A DNA stretch of 59,861 bases, taken from positions 1 to 59,861 of the forward strand of contig JACPKP010000001.1 of NCBI GenBank assembly GCA_016186955.1. The letters are read 5' to 3'. Position numbers and translations under genes: made by a program. Of the stretch, positions 127-17,372 are shown piece after piece (position 1 is the first letter of the stretch; every line of letters begins with the position of its first letter). The DNA is from Candidatus Daviesbacteria bacterium. Its GTDB lineage: Bacteria; Patescibacteriota; Microgenomatia; Daviesbacterales; UBA10151. The notes below the pieces were generated by a model. It made no database searches, was not told the DNA's origin, and saw only the letters and a list, made by a program, of their open reading frames with translations.

Positions 127-155
127 TTGACTTAGAGCCCGGGGAGAATAATAAT
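127..155 (+). promoter_or_regulatory. sigma-70-type promoter placed for a leaderless mRNA of the 163..798 gene
   Basis: TTGACT (127-132), 17-nt spacer, AATAAT (150-155), then 7 nt to the ATG at 163. No purine-rich SD in between. Confidence 0.45.
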
Positions 156-162
156 TAAATTA

Positions 163-798
163 ATGCCCAAAAGTTTAAACCAAAAAGGTGTAATAAGCCC
201 GCTTTTAATAATAGTTATTGTTATCTTCTGCCTTGTAGGAATATGGTTTTTCTTTGGCCAGGCAAAATTTAGCTCCGATAAATCTACTGTAAAACAAACC
301 AATGTTAATACTCCGCAAGTGGATAAAAAAGATAAAGATTGGATGTATAAATACTGCCAAGAGGAAGTTTTAAAGCTACCTGAAGCTCCCTTTAAATATA
401 AATCCAAAGAAGGCCCTACCAGAAGTGGAGCAATGGTTTGGATCAGCAAGATGTTTCCTGAGGGGACAAGGTTTGACCATCAGGTGGGATGTAGCATAGG
501 CTATAAGTATAATGAAGCAGAAGCATATGCCTCAGTGGGAGTAGAGCACAAATTTGATATAAAATATGCAAATGAATTTAGTAAAAGCGTTGATGAACTT
601 TTAACAGCAAAAATTGATTCTTCCTGGGAAAAAATATCCCCTTTGGATAAAAAGGTAAGTAGTGAGCCGGGCTATTCCTATGGAGGTTTCCCAATGGTGT
701 TTAAAAGGGAAAATAAAGAATTAGGAACAGTTGAATATATAGATATCTTTTTTGGAGCTAGTATTTTATATATTAAAGTTGAATTATACACAAAATGA
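163..798 (+). CDS. membrane-anchored hypothetical protein, paralog family A
   Basis: 211-aa ORF with N-terminal MPKSLNQKGVISPLLIIVIVIF anchor. Shares the blocks DKKD..W..KYC.EE..K.P.APFKYK.KEG, EAYASVGV..KFDI, DSSW.KISP and GFPMVF.REN with 11936..12610(-), and more distantly with 8061..8732. Stop overlaps the next start (ATGA at 795-798). Confidence 0.8.
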   Translation: MPKSLNQKGVISPLLIIVIVIFCLVGIWFFFGQAKFSSDKSTVKQTNVNTPQVDKKDKDWMYKYCQEEVLKLPEAPFKYKSKEGPTRSGAMVWISKMFPEGTRFDHQVGCSIGYKYNEAEAYASVGVEHKFDIKYANEFSKSVDELLTAKIDSSWEKISPLDKKVSSEPGYSYGGFPMVFKRENKELGTVEYIDIFFGASILYIKVELYTK

Positions 799-1880
799 AA
801 AAATTCATCCTATCTATATTTAAAAACCAAAAAGTCGTCTTTTCCTCAATCATTGTTGCTATCTTATTCTTCCCGCTAACTGTCTTGGCGCAACCTTCCC
901 ATGATAGCTGCACATACAAAGCCTATGATGAGTGTAAGAAAGCTGGCCAAGAATGTGGTGATTCCTGCCTGAAAGTTAAAGAGGATTACGTGGCATGGAC
1001 TAGTTGTCAGGATGGTTGTTATGAAAAAACGAAGAATTGTAATGACGAGACTTATGAAAGATGTATGAAAGGAGACGGAGCTCTCCCAGAAAGTAGTAAA
1101 CCCTCCCCCGAGGATCTGCCTAAGGAAGAAGCGTCCAGAATCACACCTTCTGAACCTTGGAAGCCAATCAAATTTGGGGACCCAAAAAAGATAAATGATT
1201 GGATTATTTCCAATGGTTTAGATTTGAATATTGAAAAAATTGAAACTGGCGCTCAACTGGAAAGGACGCCAAATATTACTCAGGAAGATAAAGAAGCAGC
1301 AAAAAAAGCAGGTGCAAAAAATAAGTTTTATTTAGGTATGAGTTTTTCCGAGACAGGACTGATTAAATTACCGGGTTCATCGGAATTTATTAAGATAGAC
1401 AAGGCACGTTTGTGGGATTTTCCATCAGGATCGACAATTAAAGCCATTGATGAGTCAGTCAAGTTGTTCTCTGGAGATGGCTCTGTCATTATCATTACAC
1501 CTGGTTCAGAAGCGATTCTGCCGGAAACCGGTCCCATGAATATTTTAAACGGTACTGTTGAACTGGAGGGACAACATGATGCAAGTACAGAATTTATAGA
1601 CCTTTTTATTATTGGTACTCATTATTGGATAACTCACGAACCAGGAAAAGAGACAATAGTGGGGGTTTATGAAGGGCAGGTGGAGGTTAAAACAAAGGAT
1701 GGCAAAACCGCAAAAGTTTCCCCCAGCGGTGATAAGCCAGGAGTGGTGGTAGTTTCTCAAAAATTGTCACCTGTTAAACTTTCTATTGTTGGTGGGGTAT
1801 TGGCAGCAGTAGTTGTGGGCACTATATTAATTCTAAAAAGAAAATTTGCTCCAAAAGGACTAAGTAAAAGGAGTAAATGA
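795..1880 (+). CDS. secreted Cys-rich protein with FecR-like beta-sandwich region and C-terminal TM anchor (family B)
   Basis: 361-aa ORF. Signal-like N-terminus (..PLTVLA/QP), then a segment with more than 10 Cys. The C-terminal half is collinear with 6240..7496 (PSPEDL..., GTHYW..., VGVYEG.VEVKTK, KPGVVVVSQKLS, hydrophobic helix, Lys/Arg tail). The GTxxxV...VxVxEGxVxV pattern resembles FecR domains. Confidence 0.75.
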   Translation: MKKFILSIFKNQKVVFSSIIVAILFFPLTVLAQPSHDSCTYKAYDECKKAGQECGDSCLKVKEDYVAWTSCQDGCYEKTKNCNDETYERCMKGDGALPESSKPSPEDLPKEEASRITPSEPWKPIKFGDPKKINDWIISNGLDLNIEKIETGAQLERTPNITQEDKEAAKKAGAKNKFYLGMSFSETGLIKLPGSSEFIKIDKARLWDFPSGSTIKAIDESVKLFSGDGSVIIITPGSEAILPETGPMNILNGTVELEGQHDASTEFIDLFIIGTHYWITHEPGKETIVGVYEGQVEVKTKDGKTAKVSPSGDKPGVVVVSQKLSPVKLSIVGGVLAAVVVGTILILKRKFAPKGLSKRSK

Positions 1881-1948
1881 AAAAATTAACCTGTCTGTAT
1901 CATATAAGTTGACAACCAGGTAAGAAACCATGTTATTATAAATAGTAG

Positions 1949-2479
1949 ATGCAAAAAGGTTTTGCCCAACCTGTTATCCTAATTATTGGTGTAATTTTAG
2001 CTGCCATAATTGCCGGGTTTCTTTTAAGCCAAAATAAGCTCCCCTTTTCTAATAGTTCAAAAGAGCAGCCAAAAGAACAAATTTCTCCGCAAAAAAAAGT
2101 TACAATAACCCCTAAACCGGATCAACCATCAAGCACTTCAAGCAGTCCTAAGGGTGTAGTAATTGTCCAAAAGCCTACCAAAGGAGAAAAAATTACTTCG
2201 CCTTTAACCATATCAGGTTTTGTTTATGGAAATAATGGAACTTTAACGATTAAGTTAAAACAAAGGATAGGTGGTTCTTATGTTACAGAAGACAAGATAG
2301 TAAAAATACAGGGAAAGTCAGATAATATCAGTTTTGCCGAGGCCATCCAATTTGGATTACCGGTAGAGCCCCAAACCGGAATATTGGAAGTTATTTTTAA
2401 GGATAATTCAGGGAAAAGTTTGGATGATAAAGTAGAGATAGAGGTTGAGTTCCCCTCGGATTTAGGTAAAGGTGACTAA
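1949..2479 (+). CDS. membrane-anchored protein with possible Gmad2-type Ig-like domain
   Basis: 176-aa ORF with N-terminal MQKGFAQPVILIIGVILAAI anchor and a Ser/Pro/Lys linker. ITSPLTISGFVYGNNGTLTIKLKQ resembles the Gmad2 Ig-like fold signature. The domain call is tentative. Confidence 0.6.
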   Translation: MQKGFAQPVILIIGVILAAIIAGFLLSQNKLPFSNSSKEQPKEQISPQKKVTITPKPDQPSSTSSSPKGVVIVQKPTKGEKITSPLTISGFVYGNNGTLTIKLKQRIGGSYVTEDKIVKIQGKSDNISFAEAIQFGLPVEPQTGILEVIFKDNSGKSLDDKVEIEVEFPSDLGKGD

Positions 2480-2488
2480 TCTTAAAAA

Positions 2489-4351
2489 ATGCCCAAACTT
2501 ATCCTCTTAGCAGTTGTAGCTATCATAGCTGGGTTTTTTGGCTATAATCAATTACTTGGTAAAACTTATATAGATGCTGATAAAACTGTCAAAGGGGACT
2601 TTCAAGTCGGCCAGGGTAAAACTGCCACATTAAGAAATGGCGCTAAATTAACTGTTGAGGGTAATGTAAGTTTAAATGGTGAGGTGGATTGTCAAAATGG
2701 CCCAATTTATATAGAAGTTAAAGGTAACTTAACGGTTGGTGGAACTATCAAGTGTGAAAGGACAGAAGCAGAAATTCAATCAGGTAGATTAGGAATGGGG
2801 ATGGTTTTTGTAGTCTCTGGCTCTACCACTCTTAGTAAAAATTCTATCTTAATTACTAATGGTAATTTGCAATTTGTTGATAAAGAAGAGAATATTGCCA
2901 AGACCCAAGAAGATATTGAAAAAATCTTTGACGAAGTTGAATCTAGTTCTCCCTCAAATAACACAACACTAGGGCCCCTTGTTCCCAATGGCTTAACTCA
3001 AAAAGATCAAACCTTTAATCTAGTAAAACCTGTTTATGCAGATTCCCACAAGTTTGTCTCGCAAGGGACAATTGTAATTGGGAGCCCCAAAGAAAAACTA
3101 CCTAAAGACTTAAGTATTGCCACTCCACCCAGAGGTATCAGGCATATCATCATCAACTATAATTTACCAGGGGCTGATTTAGAGCTGAAAGACCAAACAA
3201 TTATTGGACCAGATGGGCTAGATGGATTATCAATCAGTGATGAATGTGACATCAACATCCCAGCTAAGGAATCTGAAGTTGATAAAAAAGCTAAAGATGC
3301 GCTGCGTTTTAATGCTAAAGCTCGAAATATTTTTATCAATAATTTTGAGCTTTGGTTAGGCAGTGGTGGCCAAGGTGGTACAGCCCAAACAAAAGTTGAC
3401 TGTTATCCCAAAGCTACAGCCATTGCTGGAGATGGGGGTAAAGCTGGTAATTTCCGCTTCCAAGCCAATAGTGGGATTTATGTCCAGGGCTCTTTTAATA
3501 TCCACCCCGGAATATCAGGATCTGGTGGTGATGCTATAGCTACAGCTGGAGGTGGAGGTAATGGGGTAGATTACCAAGATGGAGAAAAAGGTGGCAGTGC
3601 TTTTGCTAAGGGAGGTAACGGGGCTGATAATATTAAAGATTTATCCTGGTTGGGGGTGGTTAAAGGGGTAGAAAATATTAGCATAGATTCAGTCATTGCT
3701 GGTGCTGGGGGAAATGCAGGAGCCAAAGCTGGTTCTGGGGGAACAGGTGGTTGTGGGGCAAAAGGTGGTCAACCAGGCCAGGCAGAAGCTAAGGGAGGTA
3801 AAGGGGGAAAATACCAACTTAAGATCCCCCAACAAGTTAAAAGAATGGCTGAAGTAAATGATTCTGACGGGCCAGAAGGTAGACCAATAACGGAGTTTGG
3901 GCAAAAAGGCAAAGATGGTTTACCTTGTTCTGATAAAGCAGGCTACATCCCTAAAACCACTAAGCCTGAGGGCTATGCTTATCAAGCTGCACCAGTTTCC
4001 CAAGCAGGAAGTGTGTTTCTATTTAGAGTTTGGCCTAGAGGTTACCATACTCCAACTATGGCTTTAGCTAAAGGACCTATTTATCTTGATATACATCTGT
4101 CTTTACAAGATCCTCAGACAATTAAAGACTACCTACCCATTAGGGTAGTGATGTTTACCAATGGAAATCAATTTTGGGAAGGAACTATGAAGAATGGTAA
4201 TGTTAGCTGTTGGGCTAATGATAGCCTAGATGATTGTGCTTCTATTGCTGGTCCAACCATCTCAGATGATTGGTACATCAGGGGAGAAACCAAACTAACC
4301 TTTAAACTATATGATAAAGAAGGTAAAGAGTTACCTCAGAGGCAAAATTAA
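2489..4351 (+). CDS. large membrane-anchored glycine-rich repeat protein (family C, copy 1)
   Basis: 620-aa ORF with MPKLILLAVVAIIAGFF anchor. The N-terminal segment has alternating G/V/T and looks beta-helix-like. The central block has GGxGG-type repeats (GSGGQGGTA, GDGGKAGN, SGSGGDAIA, AGAGGNAGA, GSGGTGGCGAKGG). Collinear with 4414..6249 except for the C-terminal ~150 aa. Confidence 0.85.
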   Translation: MPKLILLAVVAIIAGFFGYNQLLGKTYIDADKTVKGDFQVGQGKTATLRNGAKLTVEGNVSLNGEVDCQNGPIYIEVKGNLTVGGTIKCERTEAEIQSGRLGMGMVFVVSGSTTLSKNSILITNGNLQFVDKEENIAKTQEDIEKIFDEVESSSPSNNTTLGPLVPNGLTQKDQTFNLVKPVYADSHKFVSQGTIVIGSPKEKLPKDLSIATPPRGIRHIIINYNLPGADLELKDQTIIGPDGLDGLSISDECDINIPAKESEVDKKAKDALRFNAKARNIFINNFELWLGSGGQGGTAQTKVDCYPKATAIAGDGGKAGNFRFQANSGIYVQGSFNIHPGISGSGGDAIATAGGGGNGVDYQDGEKGGSAFAKGGNGADNIKDLSWLGVVKGVENISIDSVIAGAGGNAGAKAGSGGTGGCGAKGGQPGQAEAKGGKGGKYQLKIPQQVKRMAEVNDSDGPEGRPITEFGQKGKDGLPCSDKAGYIPKTTKPEGYAYQAAPVSQAGSVFLFRVWPRGYHTPTMALAKGPIYLDIHLSLQDPQTIKDYLPIRVVMFTNGNQFWEGTMKNGNVSCWANDSLDDCASIAGPTISDDWYIRGETKLTFKLYDKEGKELPQRQN

Positions 4352-4413: not shown

Positions 4414-6249
4414 ATGCCCAAAATTATTTTAATTAGCTTGGCCGTAATATTAGCAGCATTTTTAGGCTATCAAAACTTTAACTCCAGCTCATCCATTGAT
4501 AAAGATACTGTTATCAGCGGGGATTACAAAATCGGCAAAGATAAAACTATAGTCGTCAGGAACGGTTCAAAGGTTGTGGTTAAGGGTAAAACCGAAATAG
4601 CAGGCAGTTTAAGGTGTGAAAATGGGGCAATCAAGCTTGAAACCCAAGGGGACCTAAAGGTTACAGGAGCAATAGTTTGCAACAGGGATAAAGGTGATAA
4701 GAAACCCTCAGGTGATGAGCAGGGCATAAATATTATTGCCAAAGGAGATTTTGATTTTGAAAAAGATTCGGTTTTGGCAAGCAACGCCCATATCCAGATT
4801 GTTGAAAGCGAAGACCTGCTACTTCAAACTCAAGAAGATTTCAAAAATGCTTTTAATGAAACCGCTCAAGATTCAGGTGAAGGTTTTAGGATCGGCCCGC
4901 TTTTTAACAATATTCCCAAACAGACCACATTTGACAATCTGCCCCAACTACAGATTACACCTCAAACGGATACTAACCTACCTGCTGTTTCATTGATCAA
5001 GACAGTCCAGGCAGATAATAGTAAAAGAGGAGCTTTTAGGGGGAAAATTGGCCAGTCTTGGGGTAATCCGAATGACAAATTGCCGGGATGGGTGGATCTA
5101 AAAGATATCCCGAGATATTTAGACTATCTTCTGTTTTGGGTTAATATGCCCAACAGGACTTTAGAGCTTTATGATTCTGTGATATTTACTCCAAACGGCC
5201 ATGATGCCAAAGATATACTGGGAGGATGTGATATCAACGCCCCTGACGCAGAAAAAATCAAGGATGAAAATGACGATACGGATGCTGTCAAAAAAAACGC
5301 CATGAGAATGAGAGCCAGAGCCAAGGTCATTAAAGTTAAAAATTTCCATTTGTTTTTAGGTGATGGCGGAAAGGGTGGAGATGCTGTGACTGATAAAAAC
5401 TGCAGGCCGGGAAAAGCAATAGCAGGGCATGGGGGGAATGCAGCTAACTTTAAGTGGACAGCCCAGGAAAATATCGACATAGTCGGCAGCTTTTTCATCT
5501 ATCCTGGTAAGGGTGGAGATGGCGGTAAGGCTATAGCTTATGGAGATAAAGGAGATCCGGGATGCCCGGGCAAAACAGGTTTTAACGCTACAGCCAAAGG
5601 AGGATGGGGAGCCCCCAACCATCGGGTTTTGTCAGCCACAGGCGATGTCGGGGGTTTACAAAATATTTACATTGACCAAATGGTTGGAGGAAATGGCGGG
5701 GATGCCGAAGTTTATCCGGGTGAGGGTGGTGATGCTGATAAGTGTGATTGTAAAGGAGGCAAACCCGGTACAGGTTATGCCACACCCGGAAAAGGCGGGG
5801 ATGTGTCTTTGAAATATCCGCCCGGAGTACAAAGAGGGGTGGGTGTAAAGGATGTCAAGGGTGAAGATGGTAAGGCAGTAGGACAAAAAGGATTACTTGG
5901 TAAAGACGGGTCGGCATGTGGCGGAGACAAATCTGTAACGGCAAAACCTTCCCCTTCACCAAAAAAGGTAGATACAACCAGCCAAAATTTCGGTGACCAG
6001 AACCCTGGACAAGCGTCGATAGAGGTGCTGGTAATCAATGGGCAAAATTTCCCGTCCAAACAATTTCGCGTAGCTTCTCCGGATGAGTGCGGGGCTTTGC
6101 ACTATCATGCTGATCTGGAAGTTTCCTCAGTTGATTTAAAAACCCATATGAATGATCCTAACCCCAGCGGATGCGGCTTTGGTAAAGTAGCTGAAATTGT
6201 CAAAAAAACAATCTCAATATCGCAAGAGCAAGCTTACGTATGGCAATGA
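4414..6249 (+). CDS. large membrane-anchored glycine-rich repeat protein (family C, copy 2)
   Basis: 611-aa ORF, paralog of 2489..4351 (MPKIILISLAVILAAF, ..VRNGSKVVVKG.., TQEDFKNAFNE, NFHLFLGDGGKGGDA..). Some units, such as GGKGGDAVT, fit the RTX-like GGxGxDxUx pattern. It has its own C-terminal domain. Stop TGA 6247-6249 overlaps an ATG of the next gene. Confidence 0.85.
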   Translation: MPKIILISLAVILAAFLGYQNFNSSSSIDKDTVISGDYKIGKDKTIVVRNGSKVVVKGKTEIAGSLRCENGAIKLETQGDLKVTGAIVCNRDKGDKKPSGDEQGINIIAKGDFDFEKDSVLASNAHIQIVESEDLLLQTQEDFKNAFNETAQDSGEGFRIGPLFNNIPKQTTFDNLPQLQITPQTDTNLPAVSLIKTVQADNSKRGAFRGKIGQSWGNPNDKLPGWVDLKDIPRYLDYLLFWVNMPNRTLELYDSVIFTPNGHDAKDILGGCDINAPDAEKIKDENDDTDAVKKNAMRMRARAKVIKVKNFHLFLGDGGKGGDAVTDKNCRPGKAIAGHGGNAANFKWTAQENIDIVGSFFIYPGKGGDGGKAIAYGDKGDPGCPGKTGFNATAKGGWGAPNHRVLSATGDVGGLQNIYIDQMVGGNGGDAEVYPGEGGDADKCDCKGGKPGTGYATPGKGGDVSLKYPPGVQRGVGVKDVKGEDGKAVGQKGLLGKDGSACGGDKSVTAKPSPSPKKVDTTSQNFGDQNPGQASIEVLVINGQNFPSKQFRVASPDECGALHYHADLEVSSVDLKTHMNDPNPSGCGFGKVAEIVKKTISISQEQAYVWQ

Positions 6250-10342: not shown

Positions 10343-10401
10343 ACTAAACTTGTTGTCCTGAGTTTGCAGATTCCACCTGAAAATGCTAGAATTATCATTT
10401 G

Positions 10402-10935
10402 ATGGTTTCCAGAGAACAATTTATTGAGGTAAATCGTGACAGATATGGAGAAAAGACCCTCAGAGTTTATACTGCGGATGCTGTTTTAGAGCAGTACTTG
10501 AAAGACCATACCTGGATGGATGATCCTAAGTCTCACTGTGTATCTTGTAGCCGTATTGTGGATAAATCAGGAGGGTGGTTTTCTAAAAAGATGTGTCGAG
10601 AAAACGTTCAGCAAGGCTTTTCTTGTAGAAGAGAGACTTTGAGGAATCATTTTTTGCCCTTTGTTAGAAATGCACTGGAGGGACGTTACCCCGATCAAGA
10701 GGAATGGCACGAAATAATCCATAGGGTTGGTCCTTATTATGACGGTACTGGTAAAATGGAGTGGAGTTTGTCGTATTCGTATGCGCATGAACTAGGAGAA
10801 ACAGTTGCACGGATGACAGGTTCAGAGGAGGTCTCTTTAGAGGAGAGAGCTTCATTTTGCAAAAGAGTACAAGAGCAAGTTATGCTCGAGATGGATTTTG
10901 CAAGTTTCAGTAGACAGGGTGTATATGGACTCTAA
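10402..10935 (+). CDS. hypothetical soluble protein containing an HEIIH motif
   Basis: The ORF opens at TTG 10399, with an ATG at 10402. No TM segment. Contains EEWHEIIHRVG, CVSC and several other Cys. No family recognised. Confidence 0.55.
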   Translation: MVSREQFIEVNRDRYGEKTLRVYTADAVLEQYLKDHTWMDDPKSHCVSCSRIVDKSGGWFSKKMCRENVQQGFSCRRETLRNHFLPFVRNALEGRYPDQEEWHEIIHRVGPYYDGTGKMEWSLSYSYAHELGETVARMTGSEEVSLEERASFCKRVQEQVMLEMDFASFSRQGVYGL

Positions 10936-10948: not shown

Positions 10949-11875
10949 TTACTGTTTTTTCTCTTCTGGAGGCTTATAATCAGGGTTAAAATACTGGTAG
11001 AATTTTTCAACTTCACTGAAAACCTTTTTCGATTCCGCCACATTTGCATTGTATTGCCCAACCAGGCTGTTATATTGTCCAACTAAACTATTGAATTTAT
11101 CTATGTCTCCGGAATTTTTTAACAAAACCAGCTGGTTGTCCATCGCGGTAAGTTTGGGGTTTAAAGCGCCAAGTTCGCTGTTTATCTGGTCAAGCCTTCT
11201 AACCCGGCTGTTAAATCCGCCTTTCTGGAAAAGCTCTACCACCTTGCTTCTGTCCGTGAAATATTGTTTATAGTATTTTTCTAACTCTGGTGAAAGTTCT
11301 TTATATTCCACTGCAAATTTGGAATGTAATTCTTCCTGGATAGTTTTAATGTTGCTGTTTTTTCTTTTCTTAAGTATTTCAAGCGGGCCGGTTAAATGGG
11401 GATCATCCTGATATTTATCAAGTTCAGTTTCCAGAAGTGCATTAATGCGTTTTTTCTCATCTGAGCTTAACCTGTTATATGCGGAGTGCAACATTTCATG
11501 GATAGCAGCGGAGTACTTATGGTCGGAAAATTTAGGATCATCAATTTTTAGCAAAAATATTTTTCGTCCTCCGAAAGGACCGCCACCGGGTTTTGGCGCG
11601 TTACACCCCAGTGCCTCAACTCCGTTAGCAAAACAGTATTTTCTAAAAACATCTCCTTCAACTATTTCCGGGTCAGCCCGGTAGAAAGTCGCCTTGCCTT
11701 TTGTTGTAAGAGTATTCTTTTCAGCTATTTCGACAATTTCAGCTGCTGGTTTATAGGATTTCAATACATCCTCATCTGAAGTGCGTTGTCCGGCTGTACC
11801 GATAAATACAAATAAGAGTCCTGCGAGTATAAGCAAAAAAGGTAAAGCAAGGAGGATTAAGATTATTTCAAACAA
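10949..11875 (-). CDS. membrane-anchored protein with HExxH motif and coiled-coil tail
   Basis: 308-aa ORF with TTG start. N-terminal hydrophobic helix, AAIHEMLHSAY motif, and a C-terminal heptad-like region with a duplicated LVGQYNS. Confidence 0.65.
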   Translation of the reverse strand: MFEIILILLALPFLLILAGLLFVFIGTAGQRTSDEDVLKSYKPAAEIVEIAEKNTLTTKGKATFYRADPEIVEGDVFRKYCFANGVEALGCNAPKPGGGPFGGRKIFLLKIDDPKFSDHKYSAAIHEMLHSAYNRLSSDEKKRINALLETELDKYQDDPHLTGPLEILKKRKNSNIKTIQEELHSKFAVEYKELSPELEKYYKQYFTDRSKVVELFQKGGFNSRVRRLDQINSELGALNPKLTAMDNQLVLLKNSGDIDKFNSLVGQYNSLVGQYNANVAESKKVFSEVEKFYQYFNPDYKPPEEKKQ

Positions 11876-11935: not shown

Positions 11936-12610
11936 TTATTTTTCATAAGTTGAAAAAGTGGCAAAAAGGGATTTGGCGCCCCAGTTAAAATCAACATAAT
12001 CAACAGTACCCTTTGCAGGATTTTCCCTGGTAAAAACCATAGGGAATCCTTTGTAACTATAAAAAGGCCTACCGCCTTCCTTATTGCTCACCGGGGAGAT
12101 TTTTTTCCAGGAAGAATCCATCTTTGAGGTGATAAGCTTATCAACAGCCTCTTCAAACTGGTTTCTGAACCTGATGTCAAATTTATATGCCACCCCAACG
12201 GAAGCATAGGCCTCTCTCTCCTCATAGTTATAATCTATTACACAGGATTTTCCTTTATACTTTTTATCCTTGGGGAACTTATCTAAAATAAGAGGGTCGC
12301 CCAAAGTGCCAACAATGCCCTCCTTATCCTTATATTTAAATGGGGCGTCCGGAATTTTAACCAGTTCTTCCTTACAATATTTCTCCAGCCATTTAGGGTC
12401 TTTTTTATCAACAGTTTTATCGGCAACAGGCTTGGTTTGAATGGGGGATTGGTTAGCGGTTTGAGTAGGCTGGGGTTTTTGGTACTGGAAAAAGAAGTTT
12501 GGTTTTCTAAAAAATATCCACGAACCTATGGCAAAGCCAAAAAGAATAATCAGTGTTAAAAATAAATTTAGGACACCTAATTGGTTTACTTTCACAGGCA
12601 GTTTATACAC
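11936..12610 (-). CDS. membrane-anchored hypothetical protein, family A (closest paralog of 163..798)
   Basis: The maximal ORF reaches TTG 12646, but that TTG is the TTGACA of a near-consensus promoter. GTG 12610 or GTG 12595 gives ..KVNQLGVLNLFLTLIILF, matching the other family N-termini. Strong block identity to 163..798. Confidence 0.75.
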   Translation of the reverse strand: MYKLPVKVNQLGVLNLFLTLIILFGFAIGSWIFFRKPNFFFQYQKPQPTQTANQSPIQTKPVADKTVDKKDPKWLEKYCKEELVKIPDAPFKYKDKEGIVGTLGDPLILDKFPKDKKYKGKSCVIDYNYEEREAYASVGVAYKFDIRFRNQFEEAVDKLITSKMDSSWKKISPVSNKEGGRPFYSYKGFPMVFTRENPAKGTVDYVDFNWGAKSLFATFSTYEK

Positions 12611-12616
12611 AAATTT

Positions 12617-12646
12617 ATTATATGCATTACTTTTTATTAATGTCAA
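12617..12646 (-). promoter_or_regulatory. near-consensus sigma-70 promoter for the family A gene
   Basis: Minus strand: TTGACA (12646-12641), 18-nt spacer, TATAAT (12622-12617), 6 nt, GTG (12610). Confidence 0.5.
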
Positions 12647-13000: not shown

Positions 13001-13381
13001 TTATTTAGTAAATAGGAATATTGATAAATTAACTAATAAAAGAACACCAATAATAATATAAAAGCGCCATTTTGAGGGTATTTTTTGCATCAACTGCTCA
13101 AATTTTAGAAACCCAGAGATTGATGTTATTATTTTATAAAGGATAAACGCATTAAAAAAGATGCTTATGATTGGAAATAATATAGCTACCATAGGGATAC
13201 TATATAGTTTTGTATGAGCAATGAGAGTGAACCAGGGAAACCCCATAAAAGCTAGTAGGAAGCCACATCCCAGACATTCTGGAGTCCAAATTGGTTTGAT
13301 GTATGCCCATATAGCTATTAATAAATAGAAAGTTGTAAAGAGTAAACCAAATTTGGATACTTTAGCCTTAAAAAACTTCAT
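13001..13381 (-). CDS. small polytopic membrane protein
   Basis: 126-aa ORF, almost entirely hydrophobic segments. No recognisable family. Confidence 0.6.
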   Translation of the reverse strand: MKFFKAKVSKFGLLFTTFYLLIAIWAYIKPIWTPECLGCGFLLAFMGFPWFTLIAHTKLYSIPMVAILFPIISIFFNAFILYKIITSISGFLKFEQLMQKIPSKWRFYIIIGVLLLVNLSIFLFTK

Positions 13382-13386
13382 ATAAA

Positions 13387-14109
13387 TTAAAACTTAGGGG
13401 CGTTTGAGTCTTTATAGTAAAAATCACACAGGTCATAGCCTGGAACTGTTTGGCCAACCTTGACAGATGCTTTTCTAAGTACTCTTGGCTTTGTGTCCCC
13501 GCAACTTTCCTCCATCCCTGTTGGGCAAACAGTAGTTGAATAGCCTATGAATTGTTTAGAAATAACATATTTTAAATAATAATCGCCTTCCTCAAGTTCA
13601 AAAGCGTAAGTTGATTTGCCGCCATTCATACTTCCGGGGTATTCTTGAACAAATATACTGCTGTCAGACACCCTTTTGGCTTCAATCAACCCTTTGGGCA
13701 AAACTTCAGATGGATAACAAAGTTTGCCGGTAACAGTGCCTTTGGGGGCTTCGGATTCCTTCTCGGGCGTAATTTCAAATTGAGGGGTGATCTCACCACT
13801 TTTAATGCTTACCCTGTACCAATTAAAGGTAGCAGTATGCCCGTTTTTTATCTCATAAACATGGACATTATACTGCCCCTCTGATTCATTATCCACCTCA
13901 ACAATCCCTCCCGGAACATCCTTCAGAAACTGTTGGACCTCAGGCAGTTTTTTGACATTTTCTAAAGCCAGTTCTTTGGAAATTTTGGTAGGGGCAATTT
14001 CCTCCAGTTTATTCTGGACAACAGGTTGTTCAATAAGCCACGGAGCTATTTTTGGGAAGGCAAAAAATCCTATCAGGGCTAAAGCAATTATAATAATTAA
14101 ATATTTCAT
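13387..14109 (-). CDS. membrane-anchored protein with PepSY-like N-terminal domain
   Basis: 240-aa ORF with an N-terminal anchor. ALENVKKLPEVQQFLKDVPGG..YNVHVYEI..ATFNWYRVSIKSGEI resembles PepSY-type domains. The Cys-containing C-terminal beta-rich domain is unassigned. Confidence 0.6.
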   Translation of the reverse strand: MKYLIIIIALALIGFFAFPKIAPWLIEQPVVQNKLEEIAPTKISKELALENVKKLPEVQQFLKDVPGGIVEVDNESEGQYNVHVYEIKNGHTATFNWYRVSIKSGEITPQFEITPEKESEAPKGTVTGKLCYPSEVLPKGLIEAKRVSDSSIFVQEYPGSMNGGKSTYAFELEEGDYYLKYVISKQFIGYSTTVCPTGMEESCGDTKPRVLRKASVKVGQTVPGYDLCDFYYKDSNAPKF

Positions 14110-14582
14110 GTAATATATTTTCTAAACAAATTCCTGTCCTTGTTTATCCATACTAAACCAGCGACATTGCCCAAAAGCACGGCAAAAACAGCAAGCACAC
14201 TGGCAAAGCTTACTGCCTGGAATCCCAAAATATTGCTCAACCTGATCATTCCTGCAAAAATTATGATGCTGCCAGCAAAATTCAACACTACAACCAGTGT
14301 ACTAAAAGATTTACTAATTAGCAAAAGAATAATTTGGACTGCAACCACTATAAAAAATAACCCCAGCAAAGAATTGGGATAAGAGAATGAAAGTTCAAAA
14401 CCGTTCCTGCCAAATCCTGTAAATGATTCCCAATCAAAAAAGCCTAAAACAAGCTGCATTATCAGGATTGATAAAAAAATAGTTTTGGTCTTGAGTTTGG
14501 TTTTCTTGTCTTGTTTCGAGGCAAAACGCAATACAAACGGACTGATTAGTAAAACTGCAGCTAAGATAAAAATATATTCCAT
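14106..14582 (-). CDS. polytopic membrane protein
   Basis: 158-aa ORF with about 5 hydrophobic helices. Its stop overlaps the downstream start (14106-14109). Confidence 0.65.
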   Translation of the reverse strand: MEYIFILAAVLLISPFVLRFASKQDKKTKLKTKTIFLSILIMQLVLGFFDWESFTGFGRNGFELSFSYPNSLLGLFFIVVAVQIILLLISKSFSTLVVVLNFAGSIIIFAGMIRLSNILGFQAVSFASVLAVFAVLLGNVAGLVWINKDRNLFRKYIT

Positions 14583-14696: not shown

Positions 14697-15827
14697 CTAT
14701 GCTGAATCATAGATAAATTTATCGATAACAGCTTTATAATTAGTTTGGGAATCTTCTTTTAATTCAACATAAAGCTGTATATCCGGGTCTTTCGAGAATT
14801 CATAGGTTGTTGTGTGGCTTCTGCCCGAATCAAAGTTTTTGGTTTTTTTCCATCCAGAAGATTGGGTAAAACTATAATTTGGAACAGTAGCCCAACCTGA
14901 AGATACAACCGATGATGATGTTACAGATGGGGAAGAAGGGGACTGGACGGTTTTTGAATTATCATCTAAAAACTTAAATGAATTGAGTGAAGCCTCAATT
15001 ACAGGGCCTCTTTTATCCCAGGCAGAATTTAAGGCTGTCCCGCCAACTCCAATATCATACCCGTCTTTTAGGAGAACAAAGCCCACACCCCTCACCTTTC
15101 CTTCCCTAATCAGATCCTTGACATCCTGGACCGAACTTTTATTGCCGGCTTTTTTTAATTCCGCTTCAATTTGGGTATCATTCAAGTCTGTCATGCTAAC
15201 TGACGCCTCATAGCGGATCGCGTCATATCCTGCAAAAGTTGTTTTTTGTTCATTTGAAAATTCAATCTTAGCTGAATAATTATCAGCCTCCTTCTTTAAT
15301 TTAGCCATAATTTCATCCAGGCTCTTGGCGCTACTTTTTTCCGAGGTAACTTCAATATTGGCGGTTGATCTTGTTGTGCTGTTGCCAAACACCTTTTTAT
15401 CTTCCTGGGAGGCTTCAAAAAATAGTTTAACTTTGCCTTCTTTATTTACTTTAATCCAGCCCGCTGGCGGGGTGATAGAAAATTTGGGTTCACCTGTATC
15501 CGGTTTAAACTCTGCAGAATTTTGGGAAAGTTCTGCTTTTTTAGGAATGGGGGAATTGTTAGAAGAAGTGTTTTTAGAAGATGGAGTCGTATCTTTATAT
15601 ATATCTTTGGGTTTATTCGCAGAGAGCTTTAGCTCATTTGCATTAAAAACAATCTGCCCGTTTTTGGTAGTGACTAAATTATTTTTAACAGCATAAGCGC
15701 CTCCTCCAACCAGCGCCACCCCAATTGCAACTAACAAAAACAGTGGGAAAACCCCCGCTTCGCTCGCGAAGCGAGGCGAGCCATGCTGGTTCAAAAATTG
15801 TCCTTTAATTTTAGGGAAGTTCAACAT
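14697..15827 (-). CDS. membrane-anchored PsbP/DcrB-like protein with Ser-rich C-terminal extension (family E)
   Basis: 376-aa ORF. The core (PKFSITPPAGWIKV..KLFFEASQED..) is collinear with 15827..16588 and 16692..17372. The N-terminus carries a 27-nt palindromic insertion. Confidence 0.75.
   Translation of the reverse strand: MLNFPKIKGQFLNQHGSPRFASEAGVFPLFLLVAIGVALVGGGAYAVKNNLVTTKNGQIVFNANELKLSANKPKDIYKDTTPSSKNTSSNNSPIPKKAELSQNSAEFKPDTGEPKFSITPPAGWIKVNKEGKVKLFFEASQEDKKVFGNSTTRSTANIEVTSEKSSAKSLDEIMAKLKKEADNYSAKIEFSNEQKTTFAGYDAIRYEASVSMTDLNDTQIEAELKKAGNKSSVQDVKDLIREGKVRGVGFVLLKDGYDIGVGGTALNSAWDKRGPVIEASLNSFKFLDDNSKTVQSPSSPSVTSSSVVSSGWATVPNYSFTQSSGWKKTKNFDSGRSHTTTYEFSKDPDIQLYVELKEDSQTNYKAVIDKFIYDSA
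15753..15776. repeat. short GC-rich palindrome inserted in frame in the signal-anchor region
   Basis: CGCTTCG-CTCG-CGAAGCG hairpin core (15756-15773). It encodes SPRFASEAG between the NQHG and VFPLFLL residues. The paralog at 16588 reads NSQKGILPLFFL without it. Confidence 0.7.
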
Positions 15828-16588
15828 TAATCAGATAGCTTAAAAGAGTTGAGGGAACTATAAATTTCCGGTTCTCTTTTATCCCAGGCAGATTTTAAAG
15901 CTCCTCCATAAATAACTATTCCATATTTGCCTTTCACCAGCACGTAAGATAATGTTCTAAAGCTTACTCCTTTTTTGAAAGCATCTATCTCTAATTTATA
16001 AGCATCTTGCCCGGAAAGCTTAGATTTACTTTTAGAATTAACTGTTAGTTTTTCCCACTCCGCCCCTGATGATTTTACGTAATAGTCCACCAATGATTCT
16101 AAAGAGCCTTGACTATTGCCTTTAATCATATTCACTTGTACCTTAGCTTTATTGGTTGCCTGCAAATCTTCTCCGGCAACTTCCTGATCTTCCTCGGGAG
16201 CTTCAAATTTGACTTTAATAACATTATCTGATTGGCCAGACCTGCCCCAGTCTGATGGCGCATTTATACTGAAAGAGGGTTCTCTATCCTCTGGAACAAC
16301 AGTTGTTGAACTTGTAGGTGGTTTGTAGACAAAAGCACCATATTGGATGTCAGTCTTTGGTGCAGGTGTTAAGGAAGGCAGTGGATTAGTGTTACCTATT
16401 TGCTTTTGAACTTTTACCTTATCTACCTCTGCTTTGCCTGATTTACCGGTTTTAACAAACTCATTCCTAATAAGGTAAGTTCCTCCAACAACTACTGCTA
16501 CGCCTATAGCAATTAGAAAAAATAGAGGTAGGATACCCTTCTGACTATTAACCACGAACCTTAAGCTATGAATTTTTTCCTTGGGCAT
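15827..16588 (-). CDS. membrane-anchored PsbP/DcrB-like protein (family E)
   Basis: The maximal ORF reaches 16606. The ATG at 16588 gives MPKEKIHSLRFVVNSQKGILPLFFLIAIGV and has the TTAAATTAATGCCCAA context seen at 163 and 4414. Confidence 0.75.
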   Translation of the reverse strand: MPKEKIHSLRFVVNSQKGILPLFFLIAIGVAVVVGGTYLIRNEFVKTGKSGKAEVDKVKVQKQIGNTNPLPSLTPAPKTDIQYGAFVYKPPTSSTTVVPEDREPSFSINAPSDWGRSGQSDNVIKVKFEAPEEDQEVAGEDLQATNKAKVQVNMIKGNSQGSLESLVDYYVKSSGAEWEKLTVNSKSKSKLSGQDAYKLEIDAFKKGVSFRTLSYVLVKGKYGIVIYGGALKSAWDKREPEIYSSLNSFKLSD

Positions 16589-16595
16589 TAATTTA

Positions 16596-16625
16596 ATAGT
16601 AAACAAAAAGATAATAGGTTGTCAA
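16596..16625 (-). promoter_or_regulatory. candidate promoter placed for a leaderless mRNA of the 16588 gene
   Basis: Minus strand: TTGACA (16625-16620), 18-nt spacer, TACTAT (16601-16596), 7 nt, ATG (16588). Confidence 0.45.
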
Positions 16626-16654
16626 ATTAAATTTGTATGGATTAAAACTGACCC

Positions 16655-16684
16655 TTGACAAGTTATGATATTGTATCCAATAAT
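16655..16684 (+). promoter_or_regulatory. candidate divergent promoter placed for a leaderless mRNA of the 16692 gene
   Basis: TTGACA (16655-16660), 18-nt spacer, AATAAT (16679-16684), 7 nt, ATG (16692). Confidence 0.45.
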
Positions 16685-16691
16685 TAGATTA

Positions 16692-17372
16692 ATGAAAGGT
16701 TTTTCTGCCCGAACCAAATCAGCAGGTTTTGTTGCCAGCCCGCCTCTGGTAATTGGCGGTGTGATTGCGGTAATTATCATCATACTTATTGCTTCAGGCA
16801 GTCTTAAATTCTCAGGATACGTCAAAGTAGATGATTCCAAAAAACCCCAGGGTGACCAAACGGTAACCCAAACCGAGAAACCCGCTCCAACAGACACACC
16901 GAAACCTGCAGTTAAATTAAATTCTGAAAGTTACTCTGATACAAAATATGGCTTTTCTATAAGTTATCCTGAGGGGTGGAAAGTTAAAGAACAAACCAAT
17001 AATGTGAACTTTTTTAAGCCCTCAGCGACAAAAGGGGGTGACCAGGCGGATGCATTAGTTAGTGTGGTAGCAGATGATTTGAAGGATAATAGAGATATGA
17101 AGCTTGCCACAATTGCGGATTTACACAAGACATTCCTTAAAAAGCAATTTAGTAACGCTGAGGTTACTGCAGAAAAAGAGATTAAAATCGGTGAGTTGGA
17201 CGGGTATGAGCTTGAATTTACCGGGATGATTGGAAGTGACAAAATGCAGGGAAGATACATTGTTATAAAAGGTGAAAAATACCTGGTTGCTCTTATCGGG
17301 ATGGCCAATATGGAATTTTGGGATAGTGAAAAAGCCAACATTGATGCTTCCATCCAAACCTTCAAGCTTTAA
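16692..17372 (+). CDS. membrane-anchored PsbP/DcrB-like protein (family E)
   Basis: The maximal ORF starts at 16665. The ATG at 16692 gives MKGFSARTKSAGFVASPPLVIGGVIAV. GFSISYPEGWKVKEQ..VNFFKPS aligns with the two minus-strand paralogs. Confidence 0.7.
   Translation: MKGFSARTKSAGFVASPPLVIGGVIAVIIIILIASGSLKFSGYVKVDDSKKPQGDQTVTQTEKPAPTDTPKPAVKLNSESYSDTKYGFSISYPEGWKVKEQTNNVNFFKPSATKGGDQADALVSVVADDLKDNRDMKLATIADLHKTFLKKQFSNAEVTAEKEIKIGELDGYELEFTGMIGSDKMQGRYIVIKGEKYLVALIGMANMEFWDSEKANIDASIQTFKL

What the first reader, a model, noticed from the sequence alone, without database searches (positions are those of the whole stretch)
127..17372. 17-kb island of duplicated secreted or membrane-anchored protein modules
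About 20 consecutive genes encode proteins with an N-terminal anchor or signal, or a polytopic membrane topology. They fall into paralog families that recur within the island. Family A is at 163, 8061 and 11936(-). Family B (FecR-like, C-terminally anchored) is at 795 and 6240. Family C (glycine-rich, ~600 aa) is at 2489 and 4414. Family D (4-TM) is at 7493, with a truncated copy at 8821. Family E (PsbP/DcrB-like) is at 14697(-), 15827(-) and 16692. Several junctions are ATGA stop/start overlaps (795-798, 6246-6249, 7493-7496), which implies co-translation. Apart from three HExxH proteins, I recognise no enzyme, transporter or housekeeping function. In a reduced genome that depends on other cells, this concentration of duplicated surface proteins is a plausible candidate for an uncharacterised cell-surface or attachment apparatus.
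Basis: partly seen in the sequence, partly recalled or inferred. Interest (0 to 1): 0.75.

Follow-up and report, generated by a model that had tools for sequence, protein, structure and literature searches.

The report
Conserved surface-protein gene neighbourhood in Daviesbacteria
A tiny uncultured groundwater-type bacterium (Candidatus Daviesbacteria, candidate phyla radiation) keeps a linked, fast-changing set of membrane-anchored surface proteins of unknown function; it may be how the cell touches other cells, but no experiment shows this yet.

Summary
Window 127-17372 carries 19 ORFs plus one gene fragment, and 17 of the 19 have a hydrophobic anchor or are polytopic, against 16 of 44 in the rest of the window (Fisher p=1e-4). 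Paralog families A, B, C and E and the truncated D copy are all real. One of the three ATGA junctions (6246-6249) is probably not a real start.

The genes are linked in relatives, not scattered. In Ca. Daviesbacteria and Levybacteria contigs, the tail-anchored FecR-domain protein B sits directly before the 4-TM protein D (often with an ATGA overlap) or directly beside the HExxH protein g12. The genes g15, g16, E, TspO and g22 recur nearby. B-C-B-D, B-D-A and A-B are each found elsewhere. The full A-B-C-B-D-A order is not conserved.

The large exposed protein is swappable: the C beta-helix, SLH proteins, an RTX beta-helix or a 518-aa protein fill that slot. Domains are shuffled between these proteins.

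All families are rare, unnamed and restricted to Patescibacteria, and no characterised system matches. C is a confidently modelled membrane-anchored beta-solenoid with no conserved catalytic residue.

Best reading: a lineage-specific platform that displays variable surface proteins. A role in attachment is inferred only.

The parts
127..155 (+). Promoter-like site upstream of g01. The 46-nt leader 127-172 is repeated (78%) at 4378-4423 upstream of g05.
   Evidence: This is a consensus match only; the promoter count in the region is not above shuffles.
163..798 (+). g01, family A: N-terminal anchor (..NQKG|VISPLL..) plus a ~150-aa exposed alpha/beta domain with two invariant Cys.
   Evidence: The A-B adjacency with overlap also occurs in L047.
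795..1880 (+). g02, family B: signal peptide, Cys-rich module, FecR-like domain, conserved KPGVVVVSQKLS motif, C-terminal TM and basic tail. ATGA overlap with g01.
1949..2479 (+). g03: N-anchored Gmad2 Ig-like domain protein. Its orthologs sit directly upstream of C in L002 and L008.
2489..4351 (+). g04, family C: N-terminal TM helix, then a glycine-rich beta-solenoid (GGxGGxA rungs) and a small C-terminal beta domain.
4414..6249 (+). g05, family C: an old paralog of g04 (37% id), closer (43%) to the C of Daviesbacteria MAG JACPEW010000019.
6245..6374 (+). 24-bp tandem repeat (5.4 copies). Each unit carries an in-frame ATG (MSKLFSAK/MNKLFSAK), just upstream of the likely start of g06.
   Evidence: Homolog alignment.
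6366..7496 (+). g06, family B (ORF opens at 6240; likely start 6366): signal peptide, N-domain, FecR domain (Pfam 30.4 bits), C-terminal TM.
7493..7987 (+). g07, family D: small 3-4-TM protein, with an ATGA overlap with g06. It is the best conserved core member (76% id to the Daviesbacteria MAG). There are only 20 representative clusters among 1.84 billion.
8061..8732 (+). g08, family A (divergent copy). The B-D-A order also occurs in L026.
8836..9033 (+). Truncated copy of D (C-terminal ~60 residues), a probable remnant of an older D gene.
9091..9720 (+). g09: Cys-rich protein with a lipoprotein-like signal (..AGLAMTTGC). No homolog in any fetched locus.
9956..10342 (+). g10: small membrane protein with HEIIH. 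Not found in relatives' loci.
10399..10935 (+). g11: soluble protein with HEIIH and no TM. Not found in relatives' loci.
10949..11875 (-). g12: N-anchored HExxH protein (invariant H126, E127, H130, C81, C91, H184). In about 10 loci its ortholog lies directly next to a B gene.
11936..12646 (-). g13, family A (likely start later; the gene call is 224 aa). 85% identical to a protein of Daviesbacteria MAG JACOXF010000008.
13001..13381 (-). g14: 4-TM protein with no homolog in fetched loci.
13387..14109 (-). g15: N-anchored protein with a weak PepSY match. Its orthologs (E 1e-96) recur near B in many loci.
14106..14582 (-). g16: 5-TM protein, with a 4-nt overlap with g15. Orthologs recur together with g15 and E.
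14697..15827 (-). g17, family E (PsbP/DcrB-like, assigned by paralogy to g18), N-anchored.
15827..16606 (-). g18, family E (PsbP 23.2 bits, borderline), N-anchored.
16692..17372 (+). g19, family E (PsbP_2 44.6 bits), N-anchored. The ORF opens at 16665; the likely start is 16692.
17500..20965 (.). TspO and g22 orthologs recur next to the cluster in relatives.

Best explanation
The stretch is part of a conserved but fast-changing cell-envelope gene neighbourhood. It is specific to Microgenomates-type candidate-phyla-radiation bacteria (Ca. Daviesbacteria and Levybacteria) and lies beside a stable housekeeping block (YchF-S6-SSB-S18-...-CtpA).

It has constant parts and variable parts.
- Constant parts: B, the small polytopic protein D, g12, and the g15/g16/E group. 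B has a signal peptide, a FecR-like beta domain and a C-terminal TM anchor. D is translated right after B. g12 is an anchored HExxH protein that in many genomes sits right next to B.
- Variable parts: the large exposed proteins placed between or beside the B genes. Here these are two N-anchored glycine-rich beta-solenoids (C) with an Ig-like partner (g03). Elsewhere they are SLH-domain proteins, an RTX beta-helix or an unrelated 518-aa protein.

Proposed mechanism (inferred): B and D form a membrane-embedded platform that holds or organises the large exposed proteins on a wall-bounded, outer-membrane-less cell. g12 may process them. The exposed set is diversified by cassette insertion, old paralogy and domain shuffling, as expected for molecules that contact other cells or are targeted by phages.

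What is shown: the paralogy, the topology pattern, the fold class of C, the family rarity, and the linkage in relatives. What is inferred: the physical B-D-C interaction, the surface display, and the role in attachment.
For: Linkage:
- B-C-B-D occurs in Daviesbacteria JACPEW010000019 (L010), with D 76% identical. B-C-B occurs in L007 and G-C-B-B in L002.
- B is followed directly by D in L017, L018, L026, L036, L038 and L043; in L014 and L015 another gene (518 or 582 aa) lies between the last B and D.
- The ATGA overlap at the D start is kept in the window, L010, L014 and L017.
- g12 lies directly beside B in L016, L022, L031-L034, L041 and L045.
- L047 repeats g22-TspO-A-B...g15-E-g16-E-E.
- 21 of 31 B-anchored metagenome loci hold another island family.

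Swappable cargo and shuffling:
- The slot is filled by a 518-aa protein, SLH proteins or an RTX beta-helix.
- The C-terminal domain of C is 72% identical to the end of an SLH-like protein. The Cys-rich module of B is 86% identical to the end of another.

Surface location:
- Anchors are enriched in the island.
- C and A carry conserved Cys pairs.
- SLH-bearing relatives of B exist.

C as a structural protein:
- The AF2 model has pLDDT 79, with 341 residues at 90 or above, and shows a beta-solenoid after a TM helix.
- Among 21 homologs, no D, E, K, R or H is invariant or near-invariant.

Rarity: C has 21 proteins, B 63 and A 45 among 5.8 billion (word-limited search). D has 20 clusters among 1.84 billion. 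All are unnamed or 'FecR domain-containing', and all are from Patescibacteria.
Against: - No direct evidence of any protein-protein contact, of expression, or of localisation.
- More distant C homologs stand alone without B or D.
- One 20-kb locus holds B alone (L030).
- A is absent from several relatives' clusters.
- g09, g10, g11 and g14 have no counterpart in any fetched locus, so part of the island may be unrelated filler.
- All linked examples come from one clade, so shared ancestry inflates the apparent conservation.
- TM calls rest on a simple hydropathy scan, not on a trained predictor.
Confidence: 0.55

Rival explanations
1. There is no functional coupling. The region is simply a recombination-permissive spot where genes for lineage-specific envelope proteins accumulate, duplicate and decay. 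Apparent synteny is left over from recent common ancestry.
For: - Content differs sharply even in the closest relative. In L017, g15 abuts YchF, whereas the window has ~11 kb between them.
- There is a truncated D copy and signs of cassette insertion.
- g09, g10, g11 and g14 are unique to the window.
- Solo C homologs exist.
Against: - The B-D and g12-B adjacencies, with 4-nt overlaps, persist in loci whose other content is scrambled, and across Daviesbacteria and Levybacteria.
- The paralogs are old and maintained (37-43% id), not decaying recent copies.
- D and g12 are much better conserved (76% and ~65%) than their neighbours.
Confidence: 0.2
2. It is a fibre or pilus system. The anchored proteins A, E, g03 and g22, which share the N-terminal module [QE][KA]G|[FVI]xxP plus a hydrophobic helix, would be pilin-like subunits cut by a prepilin-type peptidase. 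Alternatively, B would act like the C-tail-anchored chaperones of the Pam pili recently described in candidate-phyla-radiation bacteria.
For: - The shared N-terminal module occurs in A, E, g03, g22, the 19583 ORF and many neighbours in relatives.
- hhalign aligns A and E only over this module, at 96% probability.
- g03 is Ig-like.
- Pam pili use Sec signals plus C-terminal TM chaperones and occur in Microgenomatia (bioRxiv 10.64898/2026.03.03.709456).
Against: - There is no Glu at +5.
- There is no Pfam N_methyl match; only sub-threshold archaeal Pilin_N and Class III matches for g03 (E 0.054 and 0.72).
- The window has no PilB, PilC or PilD and no PapD-like match.
- The reported Pam neighbourhood includes ATP synthase genes, which are absent here.
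- The globular domains are PsbP-like, not pilin-like.
Confidence: 0.1
3. C is an enzyme: a beta-helix polysaccharide lyase or hydrolase that attacks the wall or capsule of a host cell. The neighbours would be its accessory factors.
For: The best, though non-significant, Foldseek matches of the C model are beta-helix carbohydrate enzymes and tailspikes: PL6 alginate lyase, iota-carrageenase, polygalacturonase and GH87.
Against: - No match reaches E 1e-3, and TM-scores are 0.1-0.2.
- There is no Pfam Beta_helix or lyase match.
- No acidic or basic residue is conserved across the family; the invariant positions are Gly, Ala, Cys, Asn, Pro, Leu and the initiator Met.
- Equally weak matches go to adhesin secretion domains (EtpA, HMW1, HxuA).
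Confidence: 0.08
4. B is a FecR-type trans-membrane signalling protein (an anti-sigma factor), and the cluster is a regulatory unit.
For: - Pfam FecR domain in g06 and many homologs.
- A weak PDB profile match to a putative anti-sigma factor (E 0.19).
- An HExxH protein next to B recalls protease-controlled anti-sigma factors.
Against: - B has a signal peptide where FecR has its cytoplasmic anti-sigma domain, and its TM is at the extreme C-terminus followed by only ~10 basic residues.
- There is no ECF sigma gene in the island or in any relative's locus map.
- The only sigma factor gene is an RpoD-type gene 24 kb away.
- These bacteria are not known to have an outer membrane or TonB-dependent transducers (established knowledge; Meheust et al. 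2019).
Confidence: 0.05

Closest known systems
FecR / PupR-type sigma regulators (Pfam PF04773 domain)
   Same: The exposed part of B contains a domain that passes the Pfam FecR threshold. It is a membrane-tethered beta-rich domain outside the cytoplasm.
   Different: The topology is reversed: signal peptide plus C-terminal anchor instead of an N-terminal cytoplasmic anti-sigma domain plus a central TM. There is no ECF sigma partner and no TonB-dependent transducer. B carries extra Cys-rich or lipocalin-like N-modules and a family-specific KPGVVVVSQKLS juxtamembrane motif.
Beta-helix surface adhesins and passenger domains (EtpA/HMW1/HxuA two-partner secretion domains, chlamydial Pmp, PfbA)
   Same: C is a long beta-solenoid built of glycine-rich rungs, is predicted to be exposed, and lacks conserved catalytic residues. 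This is the usual design of fibre-like adhesins.
   Different: C has no detectable sequence or significant structural match. It is held by an N-terminal TM helix rather than an outer-membrane transporter or sortase. Its repeat motif is GGxGGxA, not GGA[ILV]/FxxN.
Pam pili of candidate-phyla-radiation bacteria (bioRxiv 10.64898/2026.03.03.709456)
   Same: Both are clade-restricted operons of Sec-exported Ig/beta-rich proteins, with accessory proteins kept at the membrane by a C-terminal TM helix. Pam pili are reported in Saccharimonadia and Microgenomatia and are proposed to establish host contact.
   Different: No homology could be tested, because the Pam sequences were not at hand. There is no PapD-like or pilin-like match, and the ATP synthase neighbourhood is absent. 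The proteins here are beta-helix, FecR-like and PsbP-like rather than donor-strand Ig pilins.
PsbP / DcrB / Mog1-fold envelope proteins (DcrB, MTC28, LpqN, TiME)
   Same: Family E matches PsbP_2, PsbP and DcrB. The family A model resembles the same fold class weakly. Both are anchored outside the membrane, like DcrB and the mycobacterial envelope proteins.
   Different: There is an N-terminal TM anchor instead of a lipid anchor or free secretion. The function of this fold in non-photosynthetic bacteria is itself poorly defined. The family A similarity is not significant (best E 7e-3).

Membership tests
FecR-type anti-sigma regulator | FecR (PF04773) domain | tested here: met
   g06 scores 30.4 bits against a cut-off of 24. 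Many B homologs carry a precomputed PF04773 assignment. g02 qualifies only by paralogy.
FecR-type anti-sigma regulator | N-terminal cytoplasmic anti-sigma domain followed by a single central TM | tested here: not met
   B starts with a signal peptide (MKKFILPI...A|Q) and has its TM at the extreme C-terminus.
FecR-type anti-sigma regulator | Adjacent ECF sigma factor gene | tested here: not met
   There are no Sigma70_r2/r4 hits in island genes or in the gene tables of relatives' loci. The only sigma gene is RpoD-like, at 41761-43554.
PsbP / DcrB (Mog1-PsbP fold) family | Profile match to PsbP_2, PsbP or DcrB over the whole domain | tested here: met
   g19 matches PsbP_2 at 44.6 bits (cut-off 27) and PsbP at 33.7 bits. 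g18 matches PsbP at 23.2 bits against a cut-off of 23.5. g17 qualifies by paralogy, E 7e-25. The family profile hits the PsbP-like PNSL1 in PDB at E 0.002.
PsbP / DcrB (Mog1-PsbP fold) family, for family A | Structural match to the fold | tested here: inconclusive
   The AF2 model has pLDDT 81.5. The top Foldseek hits are all of this fold class (MTC28, EagT6, SciW, DcrB, PsbP, Mog1), but the best E is 7e-3 and TM is 0.2-0.35. hhalign aligns A and E only over the N-terminal anchor.
Right-handed beta-helix carbohydrate enzymes (pectate-lyase-like) | Significant fold or profile match | tested here: not met
   There is no Pfam hit. Best Foldseek E is 0.024 against PDB and 0.009 against BFVD, with TM below 0.2. 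The PDB profile search returned nothing.
Right-handed beta-helix carbohydrate enzymes (pectate-lyase-like) | Conserved catalytic acidic/basic residues | tested here: not met
   Among 21 sequences the invariant or near-invariant columns are Gly, Ala, Cys, Asn, Pro, Leu, Gln, Thr, Phe and Val, plus the initiator Met.
Type IV pilin-like (class III signal) proteins | Short basic leader ending in Gly, then a hydrophobic helix | tested here: met
   The motif [QE][KA]G|[FVI] plus a hydrophobic stretch is found in g01, g03, g08, g13, g17-g19, g22 and neighbours in relatives.
Type IV pilin-like (class III signal) proteins | Glu at +5 / N_methyl profile match | tested here: not met
   Position +5 is hydrophobic or Pro. 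There is no PF07963 hit, and only sub-threshold archaeal Pilin_N and Class III hits for g03.
Type IV pilin-like (class III signal) proteins | Prepilin peptidase and assembly ATPase in the genome | not testable with these tools
   None is in the 60-kb window. The rest of the genome is not available.
Pam pilus system of CPR bacteria | Homology to PamA/PamB pilins or PamC/PamD chaperones | not testable with these tools
   The sequences and structures of the preprint were not available here. PDB sequence searches of A, B, C, E, g12 and g15 gave no such hit.
Pam pilus system of CPR bacteria | Accessory proteins with a Sec signal plus a C-terminal TM helix | tested here: met
   B has this topology. 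This is a resemblance in design only.
Zinc metallopeptidase (zincin) for g12 | Invariant HExxH plus a third ligand | tested here: inconclusive
   H126, E127 and H130 are invariant in 8 homologs, and H184, E190, E197 and E199 are invariant candidates for the third ligand. There is no Pfam, NCBIfam or PDB match.

The most novel reading that the evidence does not exclude
B, D and g12 form a previously undescribed envelope machine restricted to Microgenomatia. It would mount, and perhaps proteolytically mature, interchangeable large beta-helix or SLH 'contact' proteins on the surface of an outer-membrane-less, host-dependent cell. The shared N-terminal [QE][KA]G|[FVI]xxP module would mark its clients. 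This would be a new route for surface display and host attachment in candidate-phyla-radiation bacteria.
Probability: 0.25. Interest if true: 0.8.

Novelty: new variant of a known kind. Interest (0 to 1): 0.58.

Why it matters
Candidate-phyla-radiation bacteria make up a large share of bacterial diversity and appear to live attached to other cells. Apart from type IV pili and the newly reported Pam pili, the molecules on their surface are unknown.

This locus gives a concrete, testable set for one large class, Microgenomatia:
- two well conserved small membrane or anchored proteins (D and g12);
- a tail-anchored FecR-domain protein (B);
- a confidently modelled beta-solenoid (C).

All four are unnamed in databases. 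Their linkage now rests on dozens of independent contigs.

The locus also shows how such surfaces diversify, by cassette swapping and domain shuffling next to a fixed housekeeping block. That matters for host range and for phage evasion in these organisms.

Tried and rejected
1. The search for related loci with the full or 7-sequence C alignment failed for lack of a conserved stretch. A single-protein scan of genome contigs and a C-alignment scan of metagenome contigs found nothing. A 6-sequence alignment then gave 4 genome loci.
2. NCBIfam on ten island proteins gave nothing usable.
3. PDB sequence searches of C, g12, g15, A, B and E gave nothing significant.
4. Foldseek of the C model against PDB and BFVD gave no match at E <= 1e-3.
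5. The pilin idea was tested with Pfam on N-terminal 40-mers at E <= 10. There was no N_methyl match.
6. A-E homology was tested with hhalign. Only the anchor module aligns.
7. The promoter and terminator scan was not above shuffles (52 vs 45 +/- 7, and 15 vs 17 +/- 5), so operon boundaries are not claimed from it.
8. Literature searches for FecR plus Patescibacteria, and for beta-helix surface proteins in CPR, found no paper on these families.
9. A prophage or mobile-element origin was considered and dropped. There are no integrase, transposase or phage genes, the GC content is even, and the flanks are colinear with a relative's chromosome.

Full report
**What is in the sequence**

Window 127-17372 holds 19 substantial ORFs (g01-g19) plus one gene fragment.

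- Family A: g01, g08 and g13. g01 vs g13 is 43% id, E 9e-62. g08 is a divergent member at E 1e-8 to 1e-11.
- Family B: g02 and g06, 39% over 262 aa, E 7e-37.
- Family C: g04 and g05, 37% over ~500 aa, E 2e-92.
- Family E: g17, g18 and g19. g17 vs g18 is E 7e-25; g18 vs g19 is E 2e-9.

The truncated D copy is real. ORF 8854-9033 hits the D profile at E 1.6e-29, and its DNA is 74% identical to the 3' part of g07.

- g06 matches FecR at 30.4 bits (cut-off 24).
- g19 matches PsbP_2 at 44.6 bits, plus PsbP and weakly DcrB.
- g18 matches PsbP at 23.2 bits, just under the cut-off.
- g03 matches Gmad2, an Ig-like domain.

A hydropathy scan finds at least one hydrophobic segment in 17 of the 19 proteins. 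B has one at each end. D has 3-4. HExxH is present in g10, g11 and g12.

The rest of the window is ordinary chromosome: YchF, S6, SSB, HisRS, RpoD, RF1, DnaB, EF-P, Lgt and a tRNA-Leu. There only 16 of 44 proteins have a hydrophobic segment (Fisher p = 1e-4).

Two refinements apply.
- First, the ATGA at 6246-6249 is in the sequence, but every B homolog starts at MKKFILPI and the database gene call for g06 is 376 aa. The real start is therefore probably 6366, and this junction is not a coupling site. The other two ATGA junctions (795-798 and 7493-7496) hold, and g16/g15 also overlap by 4 nt.
- Second, the membrane-protein stretch runs on to about 21 kb. It includes a bPH_2 protein, TspO, g22 and a 460-aa anchored ORF.

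**Whose genome**

The closest relatives of the island proteins are from Ca. Daviesbacteria MAGs:
- The A ortholog is 85% identical.
- The D ortholog is 76% identical.
- The B relatives are named Daviesbacteria, Levybacteria or Microgenomates.

In MAG contig JACOXF010000008 the block YchF-S6-SSB-S18-...-CtpA is colinear with window 25.5-32.8 kb. The lineage is Patescibacteria group, Microgenomates group.

**Are the genes linked in relatives?**

Yes, but as sub-modules, not as A-B-C-B-D-A. I built profiles of each family and mapped them on 47 fetched loci.

Loci from genomes and long contigs:
- Daviesbacteria JACPEW010000019 has B-C-B-D, with a g22 ortholog 3 kb upstream.
- L007 has B-C-B, cut at the contig end.
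- L002 has G-C-B-B.
- L008 has B ... E-G-C.
- JAUYKM010000011 (L014) has TspO ... B-B-[518 aa]-D-E ... g15-g16-E.
- JACQIW010000013 (L015) has [SLH-like 610 aa]-B-[SLH 582 aa]-D ... g15-E-g16 ... E-YchF.
- Levybacteria JACPAR010000015 (L016) has g12-B-[395 aa]-B.
- JACOXF010000008 (L017) has B-D-[205 aa]-A-[RTX beta-helix 527 aa]-[B-like 365 aa]-g15-YchF.

A scan of JGI metagenomes anchored on B gave 31 more loci:
- B is followed at once by D in five of them. These include B-D-A, the window's g06-g07-g08 order, and B-D-E.
- g12 abuts B in about nine of them, including g12-B-C.
- A 156-kb contig (L047) repeats g22-TspO ... A-B ... g15-E-g16-E-E.
- 21 of the 31 loci hold at least one other island family. 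Most of the rest are short contigs.

The start of D overlaps the stop of the upstream gene (ATGA) in the window, L010, L014 and L017. Genes in L014-L016 are packed with 4-nt overlaps.

Against a simple 'system' reading:
- More distant C homologs are solo.
- One 20-kb locus has B alone.
- g09, g10, g11 and g14 have no counterpart anywhere.

**Constant and variable parts**

D (76% id) and g12 (mean 65% id over 8 homologs) are far better conserved than B and C (30-50%). In g12, H126, E127, H130, C81, C91 and H184 are invariant.

The slot beside B is filled by different large exposed proteins in different genomes: the C beta-solenoid, SLH proteins, an RTX beta-helix or a 518-aa protein.

Modules move between these proteins:
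- The last 137 residues of a 610-aa SLH-like protein are 72% identical to the C-terminal domain of a C protein.
- The last ~80 residues of a 582-aa SLH protein are 86% identical to the Cys-rich N-module of a B protein.

The window's paralogs are old. g05 is nearer to another genome's C (43%) than to g04 (37%). g13 is 85% identical to a foreign ortholog but only 43% to g01.

The truncated D copy resembles the D of L017 and L010 more than g07 does (by eye). This suggests that a B-D-A cassette was inserted into an older B-D ... A arrangement like that of L017.

**What the proteins look like**

Family C:
- It has only 21 members in the 5.8-billion-protein search, all unnamed.
- The AF2 model is good: pLDDT 79, pTM 0.70, 341 residues at 90 or above. 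It shows a TM helix followed by beta-solenoid segments whose rungs carry GGxGGxA turns, then a small beta domain.
- Foldseek finds nothing at E <= 1e-3 in PDB or BFVD. The weak top hits are all right-handed beta-helices: lyases, polygalacturonases, tailspikes and the EtpA/HMW1/HxuA adhesin domains.
- No D, E, K, R or H is conserved across the family, while four Cys are. This favours a structural or binding role outside the cell over catalysis.

Family B has 63 proteins, named 'FecR domain-containing' or hypothetical. Its parts, in order, are a cleavable-looking signal peptide, a variable N-module, the FecR-like domain, an invariant KPGVVVV[ST]QKLS motif, a TM segment and a short basic tail. 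That topology is the reverse of FecR, and no ECF sigma gene is nearby. Some relatives carry SLH domains, which tie proteins to Gram-positive-type walls.

Family A has 45 proteins. Its model is good (pLDDT 81.5). The weak matches all belong to the Mog1/PsbP/DcrB fold class (MTC28, EagT6, SciW, DcrB, PsbP; best E 7e-3), so A may be a remote cousin of E. This is not established.

Family D has only 20 representative clusters among 1.84 billion.

A shared N-terminal module, [QE][KA]G|[FVI]xxP followed by a hydrophobic helix, occurs in A, E, g03, g22 and many neighbours in relatives. It is the only part that aligns between A and E (hhalign 96%). It looks like a class III (pilin-type) signal, but it lacks Glu+5 and does not match the N_methyl profile.

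**Mechanism**

The best-supported reading (confidence 0.55) is a lineage-specific envelope module.
- B, tail-anchored in the membrane, and D, translated right after it, form a membrane platform.
- In many genomes the anchored HExxH protein g12 is coupled to B.
- The platform serves large exposed proteins that are swapped and reshuffled. In this genome these are two beta-solenoids with an Ig-like partner.
- The anchored PsbP-like proteins (E, perhaps A) and g15/g16 are regular companions.

The linkage, topology pattern, fold class and rarity are shown. Contacts between the proteins, exposure at the surface and a role in attachment are inferred.

Rivals:
- Plastic region without functional coupling (0.2).
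- A fibre or pilus system, either pilin-like or Pam-like (0.1).
- C as a wall- or capsule-degrading enzyme (0.08).
- FecR-type signalling (0.05).

**Comparison with known systems**

No characterised system matches. The nearest in design is the Pam pilus operon just described in candidate-phyla-radiation bacteria. It has Sec-exported beta-rich proteins with C-tail-anchored accessory proteins and is also present in Microgenomatia (bioRxiv 10.64898/2026.03.03.709456). I could not test homology to it. The neighbourhood it reports (ATP synthase) is absent here, and the folds here are different.

I rate the finding a new variant of a known kind: a clade-specific surface-protein cluster built from known fold classes. 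Its components are all uncharacterised. Interest is moderate to high for people working on these bacteria.

Noticed in passing
window 6245-6374 and 19589-19620: There is a near-perfect 24-bp tandem repeat (5.4 copies, 99% match). Each unit has its own in-frame ATG (MSKLFSAK/MNKLFSAK), directly upstream of the likely start of g06. A single copy of the same unit (94%) forms the N-terminus of the 460-aa ORF at 19583. Copy-number change would add or remove 8-residue blocks, or alternative starts, before the signal peptide. This could be a switch for expression or export.
   Followed up: partly
window 9739-9788 and 9870-9919: A 50-nt direct repeat (94% identical) lies in the intergenic region between g09 and g10. 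No function was found.
   Followed up: no
window 127-172 and 4378-4423: g01 and g05 share a 46-nt leader (78% identical) that holds a promoter-like TTGACT-17-AATAAT/AATACT and the start TTAAATTAATGCCCAAAA (MPK...). g08 has a similar start context and g04 shares the ATGCCCAAA start. Paralogous genes seem to carry their own copied promoter and leader.
   Followed up: partly
window 12646-12617 (minus), 9091-9119, 16655-16684: Strong sigma-70 consensus sites (12/12, 11/12, 11/12) cover the mechanical TTG/ATG 'starts' of ORFs g13, g09 and g19, so the real starts are further in. For g09 this exposes a lipoprotein-like signal (MLPEREKIKNVLRCVAVAGLAMTTGC).
   Followed up: partly
window 8836-9033: The truncated D copy is closer in protein sequence to the D of other Daviesbacteria (..SPENFRDYVKFRQLKSGW..) than the intact g07 is. 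It is probably the remnant of the original D, displaced when a B-D-A cassette was inserted.
   Followed up: partly
L015 (JACQIW010000013) 7899-9731 and 11248-12996; L010 8617-11860: Domain shuffling between surface proteins of different MAGs. The C-terminal domain of C (72% id over 137 aa) and the Cys-rich module of B (86% id over 79 aa) are each attached to unrelated SLH-like bodies.
   Followed up: yes
window g01, g03, g08, g13, g17-g19, g22, ORF 19583; many ORFs in L008, L010, L014, L015: A shared N-terminal module, [QE][KA]G|[FVI]xxP followed by a ~20-residue hydrophobic helix, looks like a pilin-type signal. It lacks Glu+5 and has no N_methyl profile match. It is the only region that aligns between families A and E.
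   Followed up: partly
window 10949-11875 (minus) and L016, L022, L031-L034, L041, L045: The g12 family is a well conserved (about 65% identity) anchored HExxH protein with invariant H126, E127, H130, C81, C91 and H184 and a C-terminal coiled-coil-like tail. It has no Pfam, NCBIfam or PDB match. It may be an undescribed zincin family.
   Followed up: partly
window 23382-24353, 24472-25470, 45245-46443: Further secreted or anchored proteins lie outside the island: a CAP-domain protein with three TM segments, a 3-keto-disaccharide-hydrolase-like protein, and a pair with DUF5666 and glucodextranase-B/Ig-like domains.
   Followed up: no
window 53751-54245: A 164-aa protein matches the PaaX central Cas2-like domain (E 1.4e-23) and weakly matches CRISPR Cas2. 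No CRISPR array or other cas gene was seen in the window.
   Followed up: no
L013 (JAJRXD010000032, labelled Deltaproteobacteria MAG) 7721-10198: A C-family homolog occurs in a contig binned as Deltaproteobacteria, apparently split into two ORFs. This is either a binning error or a rare case outside Patescibacteria.
   Followed up: no
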